Source of the DNA: Bdellovibrionales bacterium
Lineage (GTDB): Bacteria; Bdellovibrionota; Bdellovibrionia; Bdellovibrionales; JAGQZY01
Assembly: GCA_043757265.1 (NCBI GenBank)
Contig: JAYUQP010000022.1
Coordinates: 8,683-72,682 of the forward strand
DNA: 64,000 nt
Direction of reading: 5' to 3'
The position numbers and the translations under genes were made by a program. Numbering within the stretch: the stretch's first letter is position 1; every line of letters begins with the position of its first letter. Positions 41,143 through 49,003 of this stretch are shown one piece after another. The notes under the pieces were generated by a model. The model did not search any database, was not told where the DNA came from, and saw nothing but the letters and a program-made list of their open reading frames with translations.

Positions 41143-41526
41143 TTAAGCGTCTTTCTGCGTCCAGCCTTTTATGCCGGGTTTAAAATGCTTAATGTTTTTG
41201 TAATTCAATTTACAGGCTGCTACGGCCGCTTTTTTCCAAGCTGTGCACATTGTTCCACCGCAATAAGCAACGATCACACCGTCTTTGCTCTTCGGCAGAA
41301 CCTCGGCAATATTTTTTTGCGACTCAAAATGAACAGCACCGGGAATACGTTGTTTGTCGAACGATGTTTTTGGGTTAACATCTAAAATGACTGCAGTTTT
41401 GTCATCGATCATTTTTTGCAATTCAGCTTTAGTAACTTCTGGGTAGTTCGCGTCTGAATCGCAATTGGTGTTTGCAGAGGCACTTGGTACGAGAACAGTG
41501 AGAACTAGGATCATGAGACTTTTCAT
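41143..41526 (-). CDS. periplasmic rhodanese-domain protein
   Basis: The ATG at 41526 is preceded by AAGGAG and gives MKSLMILVLTVLVPSASA/N. 'VILDVNPKTSFDKQRIPGAVHF' and active-site loop 'AYCGGTMCTAW' are present. Confidence 0.75.
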   Translation of the reverse strand: MKSLMILVLTVLVPSASANTNCDSDANYPEVTKAELQKMIDDKTAVILDVNPKTSFDKQRIPGAVHFESQKNIAEVLPKSKDGVIVAYCGGTMCTAWKKAAVAACKLNYKNIKHFKPGIKGWTQKDA

Positions 41527-41950
41527 TATCAACTCCTTGATGTTAAACGCTCCAACCTTTGAGCGGCGATAGAACCTATAATCGAATAGGTTACCGAAAC
41601 GTAAGCGTAGCAGAAGTTTAAAAAAAATCAAAGGGGTTATTAATTGGCGCATTTATCAGTTCGGACAGTCGCGCGCGTAGCGCCTTCTTCCCAATAACTT
41701 GATCAGTGAAAAAGTGGGCGCATAGCAGGATTTTCAAACTGGCTTGTATATTATGGTTTACCTCTTAAAATTTTTCGCACCGACAACATCTTTACTTTCT
41801 TTACAAATCAAAAAGTCACATTTCACCCGCTTAGACAAGTAGCCGAAAAACTCACGCTCCGCGCTCATTCCGCTAACCGTTTCCGATGTCAGAAAACCGT
41901 AAACCAGTTATCTGGTAACCGGTATCAAGATATCAGCTATCCGAATTTGT

Positions 41951-42463
41951 CTATTTGCCAATTGGAACGTACCCAAACTCAAATGAAAATTCTGGCGCTT
42001 GCTCTACCGGAGTCAACCGTAGGTGCAAAACTTTGCCTTTAATCGCCTCGGTTAAACATAGTGCCGACTCCACGTCATACAGGTGGTCTTTGTGGCCCTG
42101 CTTCAAGTCTCTAATAGATGCCACGGCCCTCTTCTTGGCCTCCGCTTCGCTGTCTGCCACCACAAAAACATTGCGGTGGATTTCGGTGAATTCTTGCGGC
42201 GAATAGGCGCCTAAATTTACAAAGTATAATTTTTTGGAATCAGCTGCAGGGGCTTCGACGAATTCAAGCTTGTGACCGTCGGCGTACTCGAGCGCCCCCC
42301 AGCAGTCCAAGTGCAGACTCTCAGGTGTTCCCCACCACGTTTTTTTTAACTCGCCGTAAGTTTCCTCAATCCGCGTTGCGACGACAAAGCGCATATCGTG
42401 AAGCTCGATCAAAGATTGGGTAGTCTTCCCACCGATATAAATCACAAATAGTTTGTTGTTCAC
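41951..42463 (-). CDS. DUF1543-like protein
   Basis: 'LFVIYIGGKTTQSLIELHDMRFVVA...LHLDCWG', with a second half 'LYFVNLGAY...EIHRNVFVVA', resembles the duplicated DUF1543 motif (GG...ElHD.rF). Confidence 0.5.
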   Translation of the reverse strand: MNNKLFVIYIGGKTTQSLIELHDMRFVVATRIEETYGELKKTWWGTPESLHLDCWGALEYADGHKLEFVEAPAADSKKLYFVNLGAYSPQEFTEIHRNVFVVADSEAEAKKRAVASIRDLKQGHKDHLYDVESALCLTEAIKGKVLHLRLTPVEQAPEFSFEFGYVPIGK

Positions 42464-43266: not shown

Positions 43267-43583
43267 AGAGTGCGCTGTACTTTAAAGTTGGTTTTCGTCT
43301 GGTTTCAATTGAGAGATACTTTTGTTAACCACAGAGCCAAACGGCGAAAGTACTATATAACCCATCGCGTAGAATTGCCGAGCTAAACACACAGAATTTT
43401 CGAGCTGAAAAGCCAATTCCCCTCAGTTTCTTCAGATTGTAGTCAATTCTAAAAACATTAAAATATTTTCAATTCTCCGCATAGTTTTGAATCATTTGCA
43501 GAGGGTTGGTAACGCATTAACTTATCTAAAATAAGTCAATGTTCGGGGTTTGATTACGGCTTTTTTTATGTTGGGGAATTATC

Positions 43584-46500
43584 ATGAAAGTTCAAAAAAT
43601 ACGCTTTGCAGCCTGTTCGCAATTTCTTTTCTTATTTTTGTTTGCCCAATCATTTGCCGATATCAATGAATCGTCGGCGCTAAAAACCTACAAAGAACGG
43701 CTGCGAGTGATAGAAAACAGCCTTAATCCTGCCGAAATGTACGAGGCGACGAAAGATCTTGTACCAACCAACGAATCTTTCGAAATCCTAAAACAGACCC
43801 TGGCACATCTTCCCGACCGACACAATAACGGCGACTTCGAGAAAGCTTTCAATCCAGAAAATACGATTATGATTCTTCTGGAGGCTTTTGAAAAACATGC
43901 CTCTTCCGTAGACATCGAACTCCTTGCCGATCTCAATCGATGGGCAGATCTTTCCCACCTCGAAGAAGTTGTGCAGCAAAAGATAATTCAAACTGCTATT
44001 TACCTCAAAAATATAAGCTCGGCACGCAAGCTTGTTTCGATGAATACCCTATACCCCTCAAGCGGAATACGCCCTTCCCCGACCACACTTCGCCTTGCAG
44101 GACCAAGTCCACAAAAAATCAGTGATGCACACCAATCCGCATTGATTGAAATTGAGCGCTTTTACCGGAGCATGAAAGATCGCGTTGTTGGACAAGATGA
44201 TATTCTTAAATCCTTCCGCTCCCTTTACATCAGTGACCTTATTAGCGGAGGTCGCCGTATTGAGCCAGAAGTTTTTTATCTGATGGGTCTTCCTGGGAAT
44301 GGCAAAGACACCATCGCCGAGGCCTATATTGATGCTCTTTGGAATATGCGAGACGCTCACGTTTCGCATATGTATCGCATCAACATTCGCACTAAAGAAG
44401 AAGCGTGGAGTTTATTTGGTTCTAGCAAGGGATACGTCGGCTCAGCTGACCTCCCCAGTTTCTTAAAGTTCTTGGTTGAGCACTCGGGCGGTAAATACAT
44501 ATTGGGCAGCGAGGCGACACCTCAAGGGACCCGAACTATTGTCGAAAAAAATACGACATGGAAGGCTGACGAATTCACTTTAAGAGCCCCGTCCCATAAG
44601 GCTGTTATTTTTGTAAACGAAGCTCACAATATCCCTCGTGCAGTAAAGGACAATATTCTCAAACAAGCCATCGAACGTGGTATTTTTCCAATCACCAATC
44701 CAGGCTCCACTCCCAACGCTGTTTCGCAAATTCAACTGCCCGTAACTTTTATCTTCGCATCCAACGAGGGAATTGATCTGCTCGAACCGCGCGAAAAAAA
44801 CGGAGCGCGCCTTGGTAAACCTTTATCCTTTGATCGTTTGCTTGAAAATTATGAACGCGTCTTTAAAGATAAAGAACGCCTGAAACAAGCAATCATGAAG
44901 GGCAATGGCGAGCTCAATAATCCAAATCATCCGGATCAACCAGGAACCTCAGAAGAGTTTCTCAATCGTTTCCCTGACCATCGCGTTCACCTGTTACGTC
45001 CACTCAGCCCAGAAAACCTCCAGCGGATCGCTGAAATATTAATTAAAGCTGAAAGTAACAAACTTAAAAATGCGAGCGGACGCCTTGGACAATACACCGT
45101 CACATTGTCAGAGGAAGCCATTCGCTTTATCACTCAATATGATTCTATTCCTTCTGAAAACTCTCGTCCGATCAAGGCTCGACTGAAAAGTTTTGTCTTT
45201 GATGAAATTTTTCAGGCCATTGAAAGCAAAGAAATTAAACCATCTTCGCTTGTCCAAGATATTTACGTCGACATTCAACTCAATCCGGATGGCTCACGCT
45301 CCGCTCATTTTAAAATCACTGATTCAAATCCAACCTCTTATGAGTTTTGGAGCGTTATCGATCAAACCCTCAAAGATGTTCCCCAGGAACCCTTGTCACG
45401 AGACCGCATAGAGGCAATTTTAAAAATGCGTCAACAAATTCTCGATAATGTGTTCGGTGTTGAACACATCGTCGATAAGCTAATTGAGGCCGCGATTGTT
45501 TCCGAAAGCGAATCACGCAATGCCGGTGAGTCAAAAAGGCCTGCCACGGTGATGGCTTTTTTAGGTAAAACTTCCACTGGAAAAACAGAGACCGCAAAAC
45601 AGTACGTAAAAGCTCGCTATGGAACTCACGAACGGCTTGAAACAATCGACTTCAATGGGATCCGCGATCTCCAAGCGATGAACGCAAGAATTCTTGGCAC
45701 CTTTGATGCGCGAAATAATCCTATCGCCTCAGATTTCATGAAGGCCTACGACCGTGCTCCCGATGGAAATATTGCATTTATCTTTGATGAGGCCGCAAAT
45801 TCACCAAGGGAGTTGTTAAAAGGTCTGTATGAGATTTTGCGAGAACCGGTTGTTTCTGGTTTTTCTGACGGAAAGCCACGTCCCATGAAAAATGTAACTA
45901 TTATTTTGACGGGCAATGCCGGTGAACAAATCTACAACTTGATTCCAAAAGATCTTCCAACCGATGTTTACGAACGCGCCATGCGCGAGGTCTTTCGAAT
46001 TTTCCTGAATAACGCCGACCTCCAGCAACGAATTTTAGCAGAGACTTTCCCAGACGCGTTCATTGCGCGTCTGGGAAATAATGTTTATCATTTCGGCCCC
46101 TTGAAAGACTCAGGCAAGCGGCAAGTGGCGCAGTTGAAACTCCTCAAGGGACTTGAAGGACTAAAGCCTAAAAACAGTGAGCGTGGCTGGAATATGGTCT
46201 TTGCTAAAGAGTCCGATATTTTAGACCTCTTCGACCTTATCGAAAAAGAAGGGTTTAACAGTGCCCACCAGGGCGCCTCGATCGACTCCTTTGTTCGGCT
46301 TTCCATCATTGATAAAATCAAAGCCAAACTGCTGAGTGAAAATGTCGCTAATGGACAAGATGTCATGATTGAAGTTGCGAAAGAATCTATCGTACGGTCC
46401 GACCGCGACGTTTCAAATTCCTTTAGACACATGAAAATTATCACCGAAGCTGGTCAAGAATTTATCGTCGAAATCCCAATTTCGAAAAGAACGACTTCGA

Positions 46501-47624
46501 TGGCGGTTAGCGACGTGGATCGAATTTTAACGGCCTATCACGAAGTGGGCCATGAGATTGTTTCAGAAGTTTATTTTGGTGATCGCGTACGCCCGAAATA
46601 TATTTCGATCATCGAAGGCGTGACTCTTATTGGAGCTTCCTTTGTCCACTACGCAGGAATCCGCGTCGGGCAACCCCTTTCCGCCGGTCCGCGCACAAAA
46701 CAGGTTGTTCTTCGCGAAGCTGCTGTTTTGTATGGTGGCTATGTGGCCCAGCAGCTGGTTACGATAGGAGGTCGTCATGACTCTGGGAAAAAGAATGATT
46801 TCCATCGTGCCACACGACTTATTCAAAATGCCATTCTTCGCGATGGACTCTCGGACGAGTGGGGGAAAAGGTCCATTCCAGACAACGTAAAAACTGGCGA
46901 CTACATTGATCAAGAACTTTCTCCCGAGGAAAAAGCCAAACTCAATCACATCACAGATCGTTGGATGAGCTACGCTGAGCAATTTGCACGCGAAGCTTTA
47001 TATGTGAACATGGATCGACTTTTTGTGGTTCTCGGCAAGCGTCTTTCGGAAAAAGGTTTCCTAGATCAAAAAGCAATTTCTGAAATTCACGATCGATTTT
47101 CTCCGGTCACTGAAAGAACAGTAGACTTTGCCGGCAAATTAGATGAAGTGCGCAAAGTCATCGCACTTATTGAGCAGAGCGGGGCTAACGTAGGATCGGT
47201 TCTTGAAAACAAATTCCGCACAAGAGCCTACAGCGTTGATAACGCCCACGAGGCCTTTAACCTAGTAATGAAAGCGTCGAGGAAAGCAGGTTTATTTGAA
47301 AAAGTCCGTACGTACTTTTTTCCTCCCTGGGATAAATTGACGGAGCTTCAAAAAACTGTTGCGGCCTCTTACCTTGGAAACAAAATATCTGATTTGAGTC
47401 GTGATGCACGCATCGCCGGCGAATACTGGATGCCAGAATCTGTTGCCAACATTGATGAAATCATCAAAGAAGAGCGCCTTCGCGAAACTCGTCCCGTCAC
47501 TGATTTAGCTCGCTTTGAAATCTTAAAACAAGATTTAATGGTTTCGGAAGAGACCATCGAAGACATTCAAAGATCAGTCACCCAAAAATCAACAGCGGCG
47601 CTTTCTTGTAAAAACATTTTCTGA
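43584..47624 (+). CDS. fusion protein: export-type N-terminus, two Clp/Hsp100 D2-type AAA+ modules and a C-terminal FtsH-type M41 zinc peptidase
   Basis: 1346 aa. Module 1 has 'GLPGNGKD' and 'IFVNEAH' (degenerate Walker A/B). Module 2 has 'GKTSTGKT' and 'FIFDEA' (canonical). The C-terminus 'TAYHEVGHEIV...ISIIEGVTLIG...LYGGYVAQQLV...KKNDFHRATRLIQNAI' parallels FtsH M41. Confidence 0.8.
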   Translation: MKVQKIRFAACSQFLFLFLFAQSFADINESSALKTYKERLRVIENSLNPAEMYEATKDLVPTNESFEILKQTLAHLPDRHNNGDFEKAFNPENTIMILLEAFEKHASSVDIELLADLNRWADLSHLEEVVQQKIIQTAIYLKNISSARKLVSMNTLYPSSGIRPSPTTLRLAGPSPQKISDAHQSALIEIERFYRSMKDRVVGQDDILKSFRSLYISDLISGGRRIEPEVFYLMGLPGNGKDTIAEAYIDALWNMRDAHVSHMYRINIRTKEEAWSLFGSSKGYVGSADLPSFLKFLVEHSGGKYILGSEATPQGTRTIVEKNTTWKADEFTLRAPSHKAVIFVNEAHNIPRAVKDNILKQAIERGIFPITNPGSTPNAVSQIQLPVTFIFASNEGIDLLEPREKNGARLGKPLSFDRLLENYERVFKDKERLKQAIMKGNGELNNPNHPDQPGTSEEFLNRFPDHRVHLLRPLSPENLQRIAEILIKAESNKLKNASGRLGQYTVTLSEEAIRFITQYDSIPSENSRPIKARLKSFVFDEIFQAIESKEIKPSSLVQDIYVDIQLNPDGSRSAHFKITDSNPTSYEFWSVIDQTLKDVPQEPLSRDRIEAILKMRQQILDNVFGVEHIVDKLIEAAIVSESESRNAGESKRPATVMAFLGKTSTGKTETAKQYVKARYGTHERLETIDFNGIRDLQAMNARILGTFDARNNPIASDFMKAYDRAPDGNIAFIFDEAANSPRELLKGLYEILREPVVSGFSDGKPRPMKNVTIILTGNAGEQIYNLIPKDLPTDVYERAMREVFRIFLNNADLQQRILAETFPDAFIARLGNNVYHFGPLKDSGKRQVAQLKLLKGLEGLKPKNSERGWNMVFAKESDILDLFDLIEKEGFNSAHQGASIDSFVRLSIIDKIKAKLLSENVANGQDVMIEVAKESIVRSDRDVSNSFRHMKIITEAGQEFIVEIPISKRTTSMAVSDVDRILTAYHEVGHEIVSEVYFGDRVRPKYISIIEGVTLIGASFVHYAGIRVGQPLSAGPRTKQVVLREAAVLYGGYVAQQLVTIGGRHDSGKKNDFHRATRLIQNAILRDGLSDEWGKRSIPDNVKTGDYIDQELSPEEKAKLNHITDRWMSYAEQFAREALYVNMDRLFVVLGKRLSEKGFLDQKAISEIHDRFSPVTERTVDFAGKLDEVRKVIALIEQSGANVGSVLENKFRTRAYSVDNAHEAFNLVMKASRKAGLFEKVRTYFFPPWDKLTELQKTVAASYLGNKISDLSRDARIAGEYWMPESVANIDEIIKEERLRETRPVTDLARFEILKQDLMVSEETIEDIQRSVTQKSTAALSCKNIF

Positions 47625-47761: not shown

Positions 47762-49003
47762 TTAAGGTACGTAAGCTATGGTGTTTCTCGTGGTGTAACC
47801 TAAATCAGTGCATGCCGTGACATAAATTGAAGCCATAAAGCGATTTGTCGTCGGATTCCAACATCTGTACAAGGGTTTAGTCGCGAACAAAGTGGCAACG
47901 GTGGATGCGTATCCGATCAAGCTTGCCGTTTCCGTCGTTGAATTACAGCCCGTTGCAATCCGAGTATTTTTAGTTGTATTTATTTGACAGTTAAAAAGAG
48001 CCGTCGAATTTTGCGGTAGCGCCTGGTTGTAAGCTCGAAAGCTTATAGTCTCTGCTACATAAAGGACAGGAGTCGCCGCTCCGTCAGGCAAAAACAGATA
48101 AAATTTTGAAGCCGGGTTTTGAAACTTTCGGATGTTTCTTTGACCTGTGGGAGCAGCGCCGGCTATTTGGTAAGGCTTAGGTCCGTACATTTGATAGACG
48201 TATCGTTTGTCCTCAGAACTTAATGCTCCTCTCACTGTAACCGCTGTTCCGATAATATCATCGTATTGGCCACTGGGAGTAAATATCGTTTGCAAGCCCG
48301 GTTTAGAGCCACTGTTTTTAGTGTAATGCATAATTGAATAATAATCGTAGGGGCCCGACCGAGTTATTTCTATAGCGCTATAAATGTCGAATGCCGCAAT
48401 CGACTCGGTTCGAACATTGTTGAATTCAACTCGAATATAGCTATTGCGGTCTGGTCTTGCATGTTCGTGAATAAGGCCAAGTAAATGGCCGAATTCGTGT
48501 TGGATGATGCCACCATTAGGTGCCGTAAAACAACGGGCCGGATCTAAATTTATGTACGCAACGTTTGTTGTCGTTTTAAACCCATAGGTCGAACTGCAAC
48601 GACCGGTTTCACGAAAAATGTATACGATCGGTGTTGGTTCAGAGCTCTGCCATCCTGCTGACACGATACATTTTAAATTGGCCCACTTAGCCCATGCATT
48701 ACAGGCGGCAATAATCGTCGTTCGCTCAGCTGAAGTAAACTCACTGTGAATCCACATTCGTACTTCGCCGTTAGGCCACCTTGGTGCTGTGGCGAGTTTT
48801 GCTTTACCATCGAGGCCAGTTTGGTTTTCATCAAAGATGTACATATCGTCGCCGACAAGAGTCGTTCCTATTTGTTGCTCTGCAAGGCCCATCGAACCAG
48901 CAATCGACGAAGTCGTCGCATCTCTCCCACAATTGTTAAAGAGCGGAAAAAAAACGAAGCTGAAACCAGCCATCAGCATGACAAGTATGTTTTTCTTATG
49001 CAT
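47762..49003 (-). CDS. astacin-family (M12A) zinc metalloprotease lipoprotein with a C-terminal repeat domain
   Basis: Lipobox-like FPLFNN/CGRD. 'HEFGHLLGLIHEHARPDRNSYI' is the astacin HExxHxxGxxHE signature and 'YYSIMHY' is the Met-turn. The C-terminal ~150 aa has three 'YR.(W/Y)N...' repeats. Confidence 0.85.
   Translation of the reverse strand: MHKKNILVMLMAGFSFVFFPLFNNCGRDATTSSIAGSMGLAEQQIGTTLVGDDMYIFDENQTGLDGKAKLATAPRWPNGEVRMWIHSEFTSAERTTIIAACNAWAKWANLKCIVSAGWQSSEPTPIVYIFRETGRCSSTYGFKTTTNVAYINLDPARCFTAPNGGIIQHEFGHLLGLIHEHARPDRNSYIRVEFNNVRTESIAAFDIYSAIEITRSGPYDYYSIMHYTKNSGSKPGLQTIFTPSGQYDDIIGTAVTVRGALSSEDKRYVYQMYGPKPYQIAGAAPTGQRNIRKFQNPASKFYLFLPDGAATPVLYVAETISFRAYNQALPQNSTALFNCQINTTKNTRIATGCNSTTETASLIGYASTVATLFATKPLYRCWNPTTNRFMASIYVTACTDLGYTTRNTIAYVP

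What the first reader, a model, noticed from the sequence alone, without database searches (positions are those of the whole stretch)
43584..47624. 1346-aa fusion of an export-type N-terminus, two Clp/Hsp100 D2-type AAA+ modules and an FtsH-type M41 peptidase
Seen in the sequence:
- One uninterrupted ORF. Its N-terminus MKVQKIRFAACSQFLFLFLFAQSFA/DINES looks like a cleavable Sec signal or signal anchor, not the two-TM FtsH anchor.
- Module 1, 'VVGQDDILKS..FYLMGLPGNGKDTIAEAY..AVIFVNEAHNIPRAVKDNILKQAIERGIF..VTFIFASNEG..LNRFPDHRVHLLRPLS', tracks the ClpA/B D2 block. Its Walker A ends GK-D and its Walker B reads N-E, so both are degenerate.
- Module 2, 'VFGVEHIVDKL..MAFLGKTSTGKTETAKQY..IAFIFDEAANSPRELLKGLYEILREP..VTIILTGNAG', is canonical.
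- The C-terminus, 'TAYHEVGHEIV..ISIIEGVTLIG..LYGGYVAQQLV..GKKNDFHRATRLIQNAI', follows FtsH M41, including HExxH and the downstream Asp.

Established knowledge: FtsH joins a classic-clade AAA module to M41. Clp D2-type modules normally work with a separate ClpP.

Inference: a pseudo-ATPase plus ATPase Clp-type stack fused in cis to an M41 protease, with an export-type leader, is an architecture I cannot place in a characterised family. In a predator-like genome it could be envelope-anchored or delivered into prey.

Context: a 317-bp AT-rich upstream region, with a secreted 212-aa protein upstream and an astacin gene convergent downstream.
Basis: partly seen in the sequence, partly recalled or inferred. 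Interest (0 to 1): 0.8.

Follow-up and report, generated by a model that had tools for sequence, protein, structure and literature searches.

The report
Exported Clp-type AAA+ M41 protease
A lineage of predatory-type bacteria (Bdellovibrionota) encodes a large, undescribed protein that joins two Clp-type ATP motor modules to an FtsH-type zinc protease, carries an export signal and ends in a conserved single-cysteine tag shared with other exported enzymes, which raises the open question of where an ATP-driven protease works outside its own cytoplasm.

Summary
It is not an assembly fusion: about 80 full-length homologues (87% down to 30% identity) and 112 cluster representatives share the architecture.

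The parts, in order:
- a Sec-type leader
- a HEAT-like helical domain
- Clp/Hsp100 D2-type module 1
- D2-type module 2
- an M41 peptidase with invariant HExxH and Asp
- a helical domain
- a disordered tail with an invariant Cys

Module 1 is deviant, not decayed. GKD[TS] is 78/78 and h4-NE about 75/78. The pore-loop Tyr, sensor-1, Arg-finger and sensor-2 residues are all kept. Module 2 has canonical Walker A and B motifs but lacks the pore-loop aromatic and the sensor-2 Arg.

The family is centred on Bdellovibrionota (27 of 36,145 genera), is patchy there, and has no conserved neighbour.

New here: the mature protein usually has a single Cys, in a C-terminal C-x-x-[LIV]-F tail. The same tail ends unrelated leader-bearing enzymes of this genome, and their homologues keep it.

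Best reading: an exported ring-forming AAA+ metalloprotease of a new family. Export is supported by sequence features. A site of action in prey is inference only. No literature was found.

The parts
43573..43577 (+). Shine-Dalgarno-like GGGGA, 6 nt before the ATG
   Evidence: Read directly.
43584..47624 (+). Whole ORF, 1346 aa plus stop
   Evidence: Same architecture in about 80 full-length homologues and 112 representatives at E<1e-30.
43584..43658 (+). Sec-type signal peptide, residues 1-25, with a predicted signal-peptidase-I site after S-F-A
   Evidence: Heuristic n/h/c analysis. Leader in 70/78 family members and 15/16 far relatives, against 0/36 ClpB-like controls. N flank +1.7, C flank -1.2. 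SignalP was not available.
43659..44054 (+). N-terminal all-helical HEAT/ARM-like repeat domain, about residues 26-157. Poorly conserved (16% mean column identity).
   Evidence: AF2 pLDDT 90.4. VIA Z 8-9.4 to alpha-solenoids, which shows only a generic fold. No Foldseek match.
44109..45368 (+). AAA+ module 1, Clp/Hsp100 D2-type, about residues 176-595, including a D2-small lid and a beta insert
   Evidence: match to ClpB D2-small. AF2 pLDDT mostly above 85.
44286..44312 (+). Module 1 deviant Walker A, residues 235-243, ending GKD[TS]
   Evidence: K241 and D242 in 78/78; T/S243 in 78/78. Census: K 27/27, D 24/27.
44430..44441 (+). Module 1 pore loop G-Y-V-G, residues 283-286
   Evidence: Y 75/78, F 3/78.
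44604..44621 (+). Module 1 deviant Walker B, residues 341-346, h4-N-E
   Evidence: N-E in about 75/78; E346 in 77/78.
45369..46478 (+). AAA+ module 2, Clp/Hsp100 D2-type, about residues 596-965
   Evidence: NCBIfam ClpB match at 598-936, E 5e-18. Profile against ClpB NBD2, E 1e-29.
45564..45587 (+). Module 2 canonical Walker A, residues 661-668
   Evidence: K667 in 78/78; T/S668 in 78/78.
45774..45791 (+). Module 2 canonical Walker B, residues 731-736, h4-D-E
   Evidence: D735 in 75/78; E736 in 78/78.
46503..47087 (+). Peptidase M41 domain, residues 974-1168, with HExxH at 986-990 (46539-46553) and zinc-ligand Asp1072 (46797-46799)
   Evidence: Pfam E 6.9e-14, full model length. Profile against the FtsH protease domain, E 5e-21. 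H, E, H and D are 78/78.
47088..47534 (+). C-terminal helical domain, residues 1169-1317. No recognised family; shorter in more distant members.
   Evidence: AF2 helices, pLDDT about 75-95. No Pfam hit. The Atlas gave nothing usable.
47535..47621 (+). Disordered tail, residues 1318-1346, ending in the Cys tag C-K-N-I-F (Cys1342 at 47607-47609)
   Evidence: pLDDT below 50. Cys in 76/78, and the only Cys after residue 40 in 59/78. The same tail occurs on unrelated exported proteins.

Best explanation
The gene encodes a Sec-exported member of a previously undescribed family of fused AAA+ zinc metalloproteases.

After the leader is cleaved, the mature chain of about 1320 aa has these parts:
- a HEAT-like N-domain, probably for binding substrate or a partner
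- two stacked Clp/Hsp100 D2-type AAA+ modules
- an FtsH-type M41 protease
- a helical C-domain
- a flexible tail with one conserved Cys

By analogy with ClpB/ClpA and FtsH, it should assemble into a ring with three tiers. A substrate polypeptide would be gripped by the module 1 Tyr pore loop, passed through module 2 (the canonical ATP-hydrolysing tier) and cut in the M41 chamber.

Module 1 keeps a constrained, non-canonical nucleotide site with GKD and NE. It most likely still binds nucleotide.

The C-terminal C-x-x-[LIV]-F tail is a lineage-wide tag. It routes, anchors or modifies this protein along with a set of other exported enzymes.

Status of each step:
- Shown: domain identities, residue conservation, leader and tag features, taxonomic range.
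- Inferred: ring assembly, direction of threading, cleavage of the leader.
- Most speculative: that the enzyme works where ATP is available outside the producer, most plausibly in or at prey cells.
For: Domains:
- Pfam, NCBIfam and PDB matches.
- Family profile against ClpB NBD2, E 1e-29, and against the FtsH protease domain, E 5e-21.
- AF2 model with pLDDT 88.1. Its tandem modules superpose on whole ClpC/ClpB/ClpA double-ring protomers over about 780-820 columns, E 1e-17, TMt 0.55-0.59.

Selection for catalysis:
- Module 2 Walker A Lys, Walker B Asp-Glu, sensor-1 Asn and Arg829 are at 75-78 of 78.
- Module 1 K241, D242, E346, N394, R462, R528 and Y284 are at 75-78 of 78.
- HExxH and D1072 are at 78/78.
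- Conserved Arg fingers imply active sites between subunits, and so a ring.

Export:
- Leader features are conserved across the family and the far relatives, and are absent from ClpB-like controls.
- The mature chain has 1 Cys in about 1320 residues. The genome median is 1.03% Cys for leaderless ORFs and 0.68% for leader-bearing ORFs.

Tag:
- The tail Cys is kept in the family (76/78) and in 25%-identical far relatives.
- In the same genome the tail motif is enriched only among leader-bearing ORFs: 18/850 against 5/850 in a control window. For leaderless ORFs the figures are 17/1387 against 15/1387.
- Three unrelated tagged enzyme families keep the tail Cys in homologues down to 24-40% identity: amidoligase-like, FAD oxidoreductase-like and 5'-nucleotidase-like.

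Real gene: about 80 full-length homologues, 112 representatives, a single copy per genome and no internal stops.
Against: - No experiment exists, and no dedicated signal-peptide predictor could be run.
- The bacterial periplasm and the medium are not known to supply ATP. An exported enzyme with strongly conserved ATPase residues is therefore paradoxical unless it reaches an ATP-containing compartment.
- The family was not found in 18 sampled genomes of the genus with complete genomes of 3.7-4.0 Mb. It was found in only 26 of 301 sampled genomes of the phylum. It is therefore not a core predation function.
- Module 2 lacks a pore-loop aromatic and the sensor-2 Arg, and module 1 has unusual Walker residues. 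Which tier, if either, hydrolyses ATP is unknown.
- The lifestyle of the source organism, a sediment MAG, is unknown.
Confidence: 0.6

Rival explanations
1. The hydrophobic N-terminus is an uncleaved membrane anchor that leaves the AAA+ and M41 domains in the producer's cytoplasm. The protein would then be an FtsH-like membrane quality-control protease with a different motor.
For: ATP would be at hand. FtsH is membrane-tethered by its N-terminus. The genome has only one canonical FtsH.
Against: - The N flank is positive (+1.7) and the following 15 residues are negative (-1.2).
- The hydrophobic core is short.
- Small residues sit at -3/-1 in 60/70 members.
- The mature chain is nearly free of Cys.
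- The tail tag is shared with leader-bearing enzymes, including a 5'-nucleotidase-type protein.
Confidence: 0.1
2. The protein is exported but works without ATP turnover in the periplasm or on the surface. It would be a ring-shaped holdase or cage protease, with the AAA+ modules as structural tiers.
For: No ATP source is known in the periplasm. Module 1 has non-canonical Walker residues. Module 2 lacks the pore-loop aromatic and the sensor-2 Arg.
Against: Walker A Lys, Walker B Glu, sensor-1 Asn and Arg-finger residues are at 75-78 of 78 in both modules, down to 30% identity. That is hard to explain without nucleotide chemistry. Another tagged exported protein of the genome is an amidoligase-type enzyme, a family described as ATP-dependent.
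Confidence: 0.15
3. It is a conflict-system or anti-phage NTPase-protease effector rather than a feeding or envelope enzyme.
For: - Patchy distribution and variable genomic context.
- Weak PADLOC similarity to the ClpB-like DolB, E 2e-8 over 78 residues. This is stronger for far relatives.
- Far relatives are fused to, or sit next to, an FGE-sulfatase-domain protein.
- Atlas look-alike clusters include viral ones.
Against: - The export leader is conserved, whereas defence NTPases act in the cytoplasm.
- There is no partner gene.
- The PADLOC match covers only the Walker A region.
- No match was found in deposited phage genomes beyond the M41 part.
Confidence: 0.07

Closest known systems
FtsH / Yme1 / AFG3L2 (AAA+ fused to peptidase M41)
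   Same: An ATPase is fused in cis, N-terminal to a full-length M41 domain. The HExxH motif and the downstream Asp are invariant. The N-terminus is hydrophobic.
   Different: - The motor is Clp/Hsp100 D2-type, not classic-clade AAA (PF00004 gives no hit).
- There are two modules instead of one.
- There is a cleavable-type leader in place of two TM helices with a periplasmic domain.
- It also has a HEAT-like N-domain, an extra C-domain and a Cys tail.
- The TIGR01241 score is 43.6 against a cut-off of 600.
Class I Clp/Hsp100 ATPases (ClpB, ClpA, ClpC, Hsp104)
   Same: - It has two stacked AAA+ modules per chain.
- The predicted protomer superposes on ClpC/ClpB/ClpA protomers.
- It has a D2-type large domain and a D2-small lid.
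- The G-Y-V-G pore loop, Arg finger and sensor 2 are in the ClpB places.
   Different: - Both modules are D2-like. There is no D1 (PF00004 plus lid), no Clp_N and no middle domain.
- The protease is fused, not a separate ClpP.
- Module 1 has GKD and NE. Module 2 has no pore-loop aromatic.
- The protein is exported.
- The TIGR03346 score is 64.7 against a cut-off of 1232.
Torsins (eukaryotic ER-lumenal AAA+)
   Same: Torsins are the only well-known Clp-D2-related AAA+ proteins with a signal sequence that work outside the cytosol. They have a non-canonical Walker A ending GKN and no aromatic pore loop (from memory of the literature, not tested here). There is a weak Pfam Torsin match at 612-679.
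   Different: The Torsin match is below cut-off (19.7 against 27 bits). Torsins have one module, no protease and no Arg finger of their own, and the ER lumen imports ATP.
Lon (AAA+ fused to a Ser-Lys protease)
   Same: A single chain carries a substrate-binding N-domain, an AAA+ motor and a protease.
   Different: The protease fold and the AAA+ clade both differ. Lon is cytoplasmic.
MYXO-CTERM and other C-terminal Cys sorting tags
   Same: Sec-exported proteins carry an invariant Cys close to the C-terminus, spread over many unrelated proteins of one lineage. For MYXO-CTERM, lipidation of the Cys and cleavage by a CPBP protease are proposed (PMC11980579).
   Different: Only 4-15 residues follow the Cys here. 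There is no transmembrane helix and no Arg cluster. No NCBIfam model matches.

Membership tests
FtsH (TIGR01241 / PRK10733) | Peptidase M41 domain with HExxH and a third-ligand Asp | tested here: met
   Pfam PF01434 scores 52.6 bits against a cut-off of 29.9, over the full model length. H986, E987, H990 and D1072 are 78/78.
FtsH (TIGR01241 / PRK10733) | One classic-clade AAA module (PF00004) directly before M41 | tested here: not met
   PF00004 gives no hit. Both modules match Clp/Hsp100 NBD2. TIGR01241 scores 43.6 bits against a cut-off of 600.
FtsH (TIGR01241 / PRK10733) | Two N-terminal transmembrane helices flanking a periplasmic domain | tested here: not met
   There is one short hydrophobic leader only, with a signal-peptidase-type c-region.
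ClpB/ClpA/ClpC class I Hsp100 (TIGR03346, TIGR02639) | D2 module: AAA_2 large domain plus ClpB_D2-small lid | tested here: met
   It is present twice. The profile matches ClpB NBD2 at E 1e-29, in two stretches. The single-sequence Pfam scores are below cut-off (18.4 against 27; 16.5 against 21.9).
ClpB/ClpA/ClpC class I Hsp100 (TIGR03346, TIGR02639) | Clp_N domain and D1 module (PF00004 with its lid) | tested here: not met
   Pfam gives no hit. The N-domain model is HEAT-like. TIGR03346 scores 64.7 against a cut-off of 1232.
ClpB/ClpA/ClpC class I Hsp100 (TIGR03346, TIGR02639) | Canonical Walker A GK[ST] and Walker B DE in each module | tested here: not met
   Module 1 has GKD and NE, invariant in the family. 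Module 2 is canonical.
Torsin (PF06309) | Match to the family model above its cut-off | tested here: not met
   19.7 bits against a cut-off of 27, covering residues 612-679 only.
Sec (signal peptidase I) secretory signal | Positive n-region, hydrophobic core of about 8-15 residues, small residues at -3/-1 | tested here: met
   This rests on my own heuristic, not a trained predictor. Leader in 70/78 family members against 0/36 controls; A-x-A-like site in 60/70.
Sec (signal peptidase I) secretory signal | Actual cleavage and export | not testable with these tools
   This needs N-terminal sequencing, fractionation or reporter fusions.
MYXO-CTERM / PEP-CTERM-type tripartite sorting tags | Transmembrane helix and basic cluster after the signature motif | tested here: not met
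   Only 4-15 residues follow the Cys.
Known anti-phage defence proteins (PADLOC) | Full-length match to a system component | tested here: not met
   The only match is a 78-residue stretch to DolB around Walker A, E 2e-8.

The most novel reading that the evidence does not exclude
Bdellovibrionota have a previously unrecognised export route marked by a C-terminal single-Cys tag (C-x-x-[LIV]-F). It carries a set of enzymes that normally need cytoplasmic cofactors to an ATP-containing target compartment, the prey cell. That set includes this ATP-driven unfoldase-protease, an amidoligase-type enzyme and an FAD oxidoreductase. There the AAA+ M41 machine would use the prey's own ATP to unfold and digest prey proteins. 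This would be the first AAA+ protease acting as a delivered effector, and a new bacterial sorting signal.
Probability: 0.25. Interest if true: 0.92.

Novelty: new variant of a known kind. Interest (0 to 1): 0.78.

Why it matters
AAA+ proteases (FtsH, Lon, ClpXP/AP, HslUV, the proteasome) are textbook cytoplasmic or matrix machines. In each, one motor clade goes with one protease.

This family breaks both habits:
- An Hsp100-type double motor is welded to the FtsH protease.
- The whole protein carries a conserved export signal and is purged of cysteines.

If export is confirmed, an explanation is needed for how an ATP motor is powered outside the cytoplasm. In a lineage known for predation, the obvious candidate is the prey cell. 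How such predators deliver enzymes into prey and dismantle prey proteins is a long-standing open question.

The invariant GKD/NE nucleotide site is a natural experiment in P-loop chemistry.

The C-terminal Cys tag found on the way is a concrete, testable handle on a possible new sorting or anchoring pathway. It also gives a way to list its cargo.

Tried and rejected
- The search for related loci on genome contigs was swamped by ordinary FtsH genes through the HExxH pattern and gave no family members. Taxonomy came instead.
- Complex prediction with four copies of the M41 domain returned 'no answer'. I draw nothing from it.
- The look-up of sequencing runs listed no RNA holder, so nothing can be said on expression.
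- Conserved neighbours: none in 21 loci with 8-kb flanks. There is also no recurrent neighbour around the ten tagged genes of this genome.
- Cysteine-switch idea (tail Cys capping the M41 zinc): rejected. The same tail sits on non-protease enzymes, and AF2 leaves the tail disordered.
- N-domain as a decayed D1 module: rejected, because the model is a helical repeat.
- Internal duplication of modules 1 and 2: no detectable pairwise similarity.
- Short single-module forms: only fragments were found.
- Deposited phage genomes: only an M41-level match to contigs annotated ftsH.
- The Atlas search of the C-terminal domain gave nothing usable.
- Foldseek on the N-domain found nothing at E<=0.001.
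- Promoter and terminator scans were at shuffle level.
- Five literature searches found no description of the family, of exported bacterial AAA+ proteases or of the tag.
- No twin-arginine motif is seen in the leader, so Tat export was not pursued.

Full report
**1. The observation**

window:43584-47624(+) is a single ORF of 1346 codons. The ATG is the first start codon of the open frame (1356 codons open). A GGGGA lies 6 nt upstream of it.

Pfam passes only Peptidase_M41 (residues 974-1168, full model length, E 6.9e-14). AAA_2 (653-785) and ClpB_D2-small (474-555) fall below cut-off. Other evidence on the domains:
- NCBIfam places 598-936 on the ClpB C-terminal half (E 5e-18) and 966-1163 on FtsH (E 1.7e-11). 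Both are far below the family cut-offs.
- Against solved structures, 598-947 aligns to ClpB NBD2, 164-296 to Hsp104 NBD2 and 950-1140 to the FtsH protease domain.
- A profile of 73 family members gives E 1e-29 to ClpB NBD2. That match has two stretches: the module 2 large domain and the module 1 D2-small lid.
- The same profile gives E 5e-21 to the FtsH protease domain.

**2. Not an assembly artefact**

The word-index search returned about 80 full-length homologues of 1250-1430 aa, from 87% down to 30% identity, from many independent assemblies. The exhaustive search returned 112 representatives at E<1e-30 with the same layout. In 301 sampled genomes of the phylum, 26 carry one uninterrupted copy. 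The window's genome has one copy, plus an ordinary FtsH and a ClpB-like gene. Contigs of four public runs from one sediment study agree with the window letter for letter. Two of those runs may be the source sample.

**3. Anatomy from the family alignment**

Module 1:
- Walker A ends GKD[TS] in 78/78.
- Walker B reads h4-N-E in about 75/78.
- The catalytic Glu346 (77/78), sensor-1 Asn394 (78/78), Arg462 in the ClpB Arg-finger place (77/78) and Arg528 in the sensor-2 place (77/78) are all kept.
- The ClpB-type pore loop G-[YF]-V-G is kept in 78/78.

Module 2:
- GK[TS], D-E, sensor-1 Asn and Arg829 are at 75-78 of 78.
- The pore-loop-1 place holds a conserved non-aromatic stretch. This is confirmed in the HMMER alignment to ClpB.
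- The ClpB G-A-R sensor-2 place reads G-A-S.

The labels 'pseudo-ATPase plus canonical ATPase' are therefore too simple. Module 1 has a constrained, unusual nucleotide site and the only substrate-gripping loop. Module 2 has the standard hydrolysis motifs.

In far relatives the corresponding modules are canonical. The Thr-to-Asp and Asp-to-Asn changes thus arose once at the base of the family and were then frozen. Whether they compensate for each other in metal binding is my conjecture.

In the M41 domain, HExxH and Asp1072 are 78/78.

**4. Structure**

AF2 on residues 150-1346 with the family alignment gave pLDDT 88.1 and pTM 0.70. Foldseek aligned about 780-820 columns to complete ClpC, ClpB and ClpA protomers from substrate-bound hexamers (E 1e-17, TMt 0.55-0.59). 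The two modules are therefore predicted to stack as D1 and D2 do in class I Hsp100 proteins.

The N-terminal domain (26-200, pLDDT 90.4) is an all-helical repeat. Its best matches are HEAT/ARM solenoids at Z 8-9.4, a level that shows only a common fold. Residues 1169-1317 are helical with no recognised family. Residues 1318-1346 are disordered.

**5. Export**

The leader has a basic n-region, a short hydrophobic core and small residues at -3/-1. By a simple scoring of my own it is present in 70/78 family members. The other members mostly look truncated or mis-started. It is also present in 15/16 far relatives and in 0/36 ClpB-like proteins from the same search. Flank charges are +1.7 before and -1.2 after the hydrophobic run. 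That is the orientation that puts the bulk of the protein outside.

Independently, the mature chain is almost free of Cys. It has one Cys in about 1320 residues, and 59/78 family members have exactly one. The genome medians are 1.03% Cys for leaderless ORFs and 0.68% for leader-bearing ORFs.

**6. The C-terminal Cys tag** (not in the original finding)

The single Cys lies 4-15 residues from the C-terminus, after a disordered linker, in the pattern C-x-x-[LIVFM]-[FLM] (76/78). Most far relatives, at about 25% identity, have it too.

In the window's genome the pattern in the last 17 residues is enriched only among leader-bearing ORFs:

| ORF class | Last 17 residues | Internal control window |
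|---|---|---|
| Leader-bearing | 18/850 | 5/850 |
| Leaderless | 17/1387 | 15/1387 |

Leader-bearing ORFs with a single Cys have that Cys in the tail 17 times, against 7.9 expected.

About nine such proteins end in C-[RKSH]-x-[LIV]-F. They include a DAO-type FAD oxidoreductase, an Amidoligase_2 protein, a 5'-nucleotidase/metallophosphoesterase, a DUF7790 protein and several with no Pfam match.

For three of these unrelated families I fetched homologues from other genomes of the order:
- 15 amidoligase-like loci (24-76% identity)
- 8 oxidoreductase-like loci (38-88% identity)
- 8 nucleotidase-like loci (26-47% identity)

All keep the tail Cys, and it is nearly always the only Cys after residue 40.

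No transmembrane segment follows the Cys, so this is not a MYXO-CTERM or PEP-CTERM type tag (compare PMC11980579). No NCBIfam model matches. The tagged genes are dispersed and share no neighbour. I read the tail as a lineage-wide sorting, anchoring or modification signal. Its chemistry is unknown.

**7. Range and relatives**

Module 1 at 60 bits or more occurs in 27 of 36,145 genera. Nearly all are Bdellovibrionota (Bdellovibrionia, UBA1018, UBA2428). There are a few Oligoflexia and fewer than 3 weak Margulisbacteria. M41 lies within 4 kb in 24 of 27. By score band that is 3 of 3 (below 20% of the best score) and 18 of 18 (20-39%), with the upper bands too small to report.

Within the phylum the family is patchy: 19 of 169 genera, and none of 18 sampled genomes of one genus with complete 3.7-4.0 Mb genomes. 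There is no conserved neighbour, and the astacin and the 212-aa ORF are local coincidences.

A more distant group of 1370-1540 aa has three AAA+ modules (one PF00004-type and two AAA_2-type) before M41. It carries the same kind of leader and tail. In two cases it is adjacent or fused to an FGE-sulfatase domain. It is also centred on Bdellovibrionota: AAA_2 lies within 4 kb in 21 of 21 carriers in the 20-39% band and 12 of 30 in the lowest band.

The ESM Atlas suggests further clusters of 580-870 aa combining M41 with a D2-small lid. Some are labelled viral or Campylobacterota. I could not confirm these by sequence.

**8. Interpretation**

The core is well supported: a new family of fused AAA+ zinc proteases, with an Hsp100-type double motor in place of the FtsH motor, and probably ring-forming because the Arg fingers are conserved.

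Export is supported by three independent sequence features: the leader, the Cys depletion and the tag shared with other leader-bearing proteins. It has not been shown experimentally.

The strict conservation of ATPase residues in an exported protein is the real puzzle. The most economical answer in this lineage is action in or at prey cells, where ATP exists. The presence of an amidoligase-type enzyme among the tagged proteins points the same way. This remains inference, and the patchy distribution shows the protein is an accessory function.

The rival readings are a cytoplasm-facing anchor, an ATP-independent periplasmic cage and a conflict-system effector. Each is less consistent with the data. 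None is excluded without experiments.

**9. Literature**

Five full-text searches found no paper on this family, on exported bacterial AAA+ proteases or on the tail motif. Database names are 'hypothetical protein', 'AAA family ATPase' or 'ClpA'.

Noticed in passing
window 47607-47621. Also G000:C35:12685-14169 (L131), C124:40792-41973 (L133), C15:201-1850 (L139), C31:23311-24714 (L132), C91:91753-92898 (L134), C67:53508-54635 (L135), C119:1491-2522 (L136), C53:19915-20778 (L137), C88:2-673 (L138): A C-terminal single-Cys tail (C-x-x-[LIV]-F, 4-15 residues from the end) is shared by unrelated leader-bearing proteins of this genome. It is conserved in their homologues in other genomes of the order. 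It looks like an undescribed sorting or anchoring tag.
   Followed up: yes
G000:C124:40792-41973 (L133) and G000:C35:12685-14169 (L131): An Amidoligase_2-type enzyme and a DAO-type FAD oxidoreductase carry export-type leaders and the Cys tail. Both are normally thought of as cofactor-dependent cytoplasmic activities. This echoes the puzzle of an exported ATPase.
   Followed up: partly
P0215, P0225, P0083, P0084 and related proteins; locus L130:6001-10404: A distant sister group has three AAA+ modules before M41, with the same leader and Cys tail. P0225 is fused to an FGE-sulfatase domain, and the gene after P0215 encodes a 1076-aa FGE-sulfatase protein.
   Followed up: partly
ESM Atlas clusters: Clusters of 580-870 aa combine M41 with a ClpB_D2-small lid. 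They are labelled mostly viral (Uroviricota) or Campylobacterota. This hints that non-FtsH motors fused to M41 are more widespread. Sequence searches did not confirm it.
   Followed up: partly
window 46046-46078 (+): A perfect 14-bp-stem inverted repeat with a 5-nt loop lies inside the coding region, at the module 2 Arg-finger segment. It may be chance. The terminator scan as a whole was at shuffle level.
   Followed up: no
window 47762-49003 (-): The convergent astacin (M12A) gene has a hydrophobic leader followed by a Cys, which may be a lipoprotein signal, and 9 Cys in all. It lacks the Cys tail and is not a conserved neighbour.
   Followed up: partly
window 41951-42463 (-) and 41143-41652 (-): A DUF1543 protein and a rhodanese-domain protein lie upstream on the opposite strand. 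They are unrelated to the finding as far as seen.
   Followed up: no
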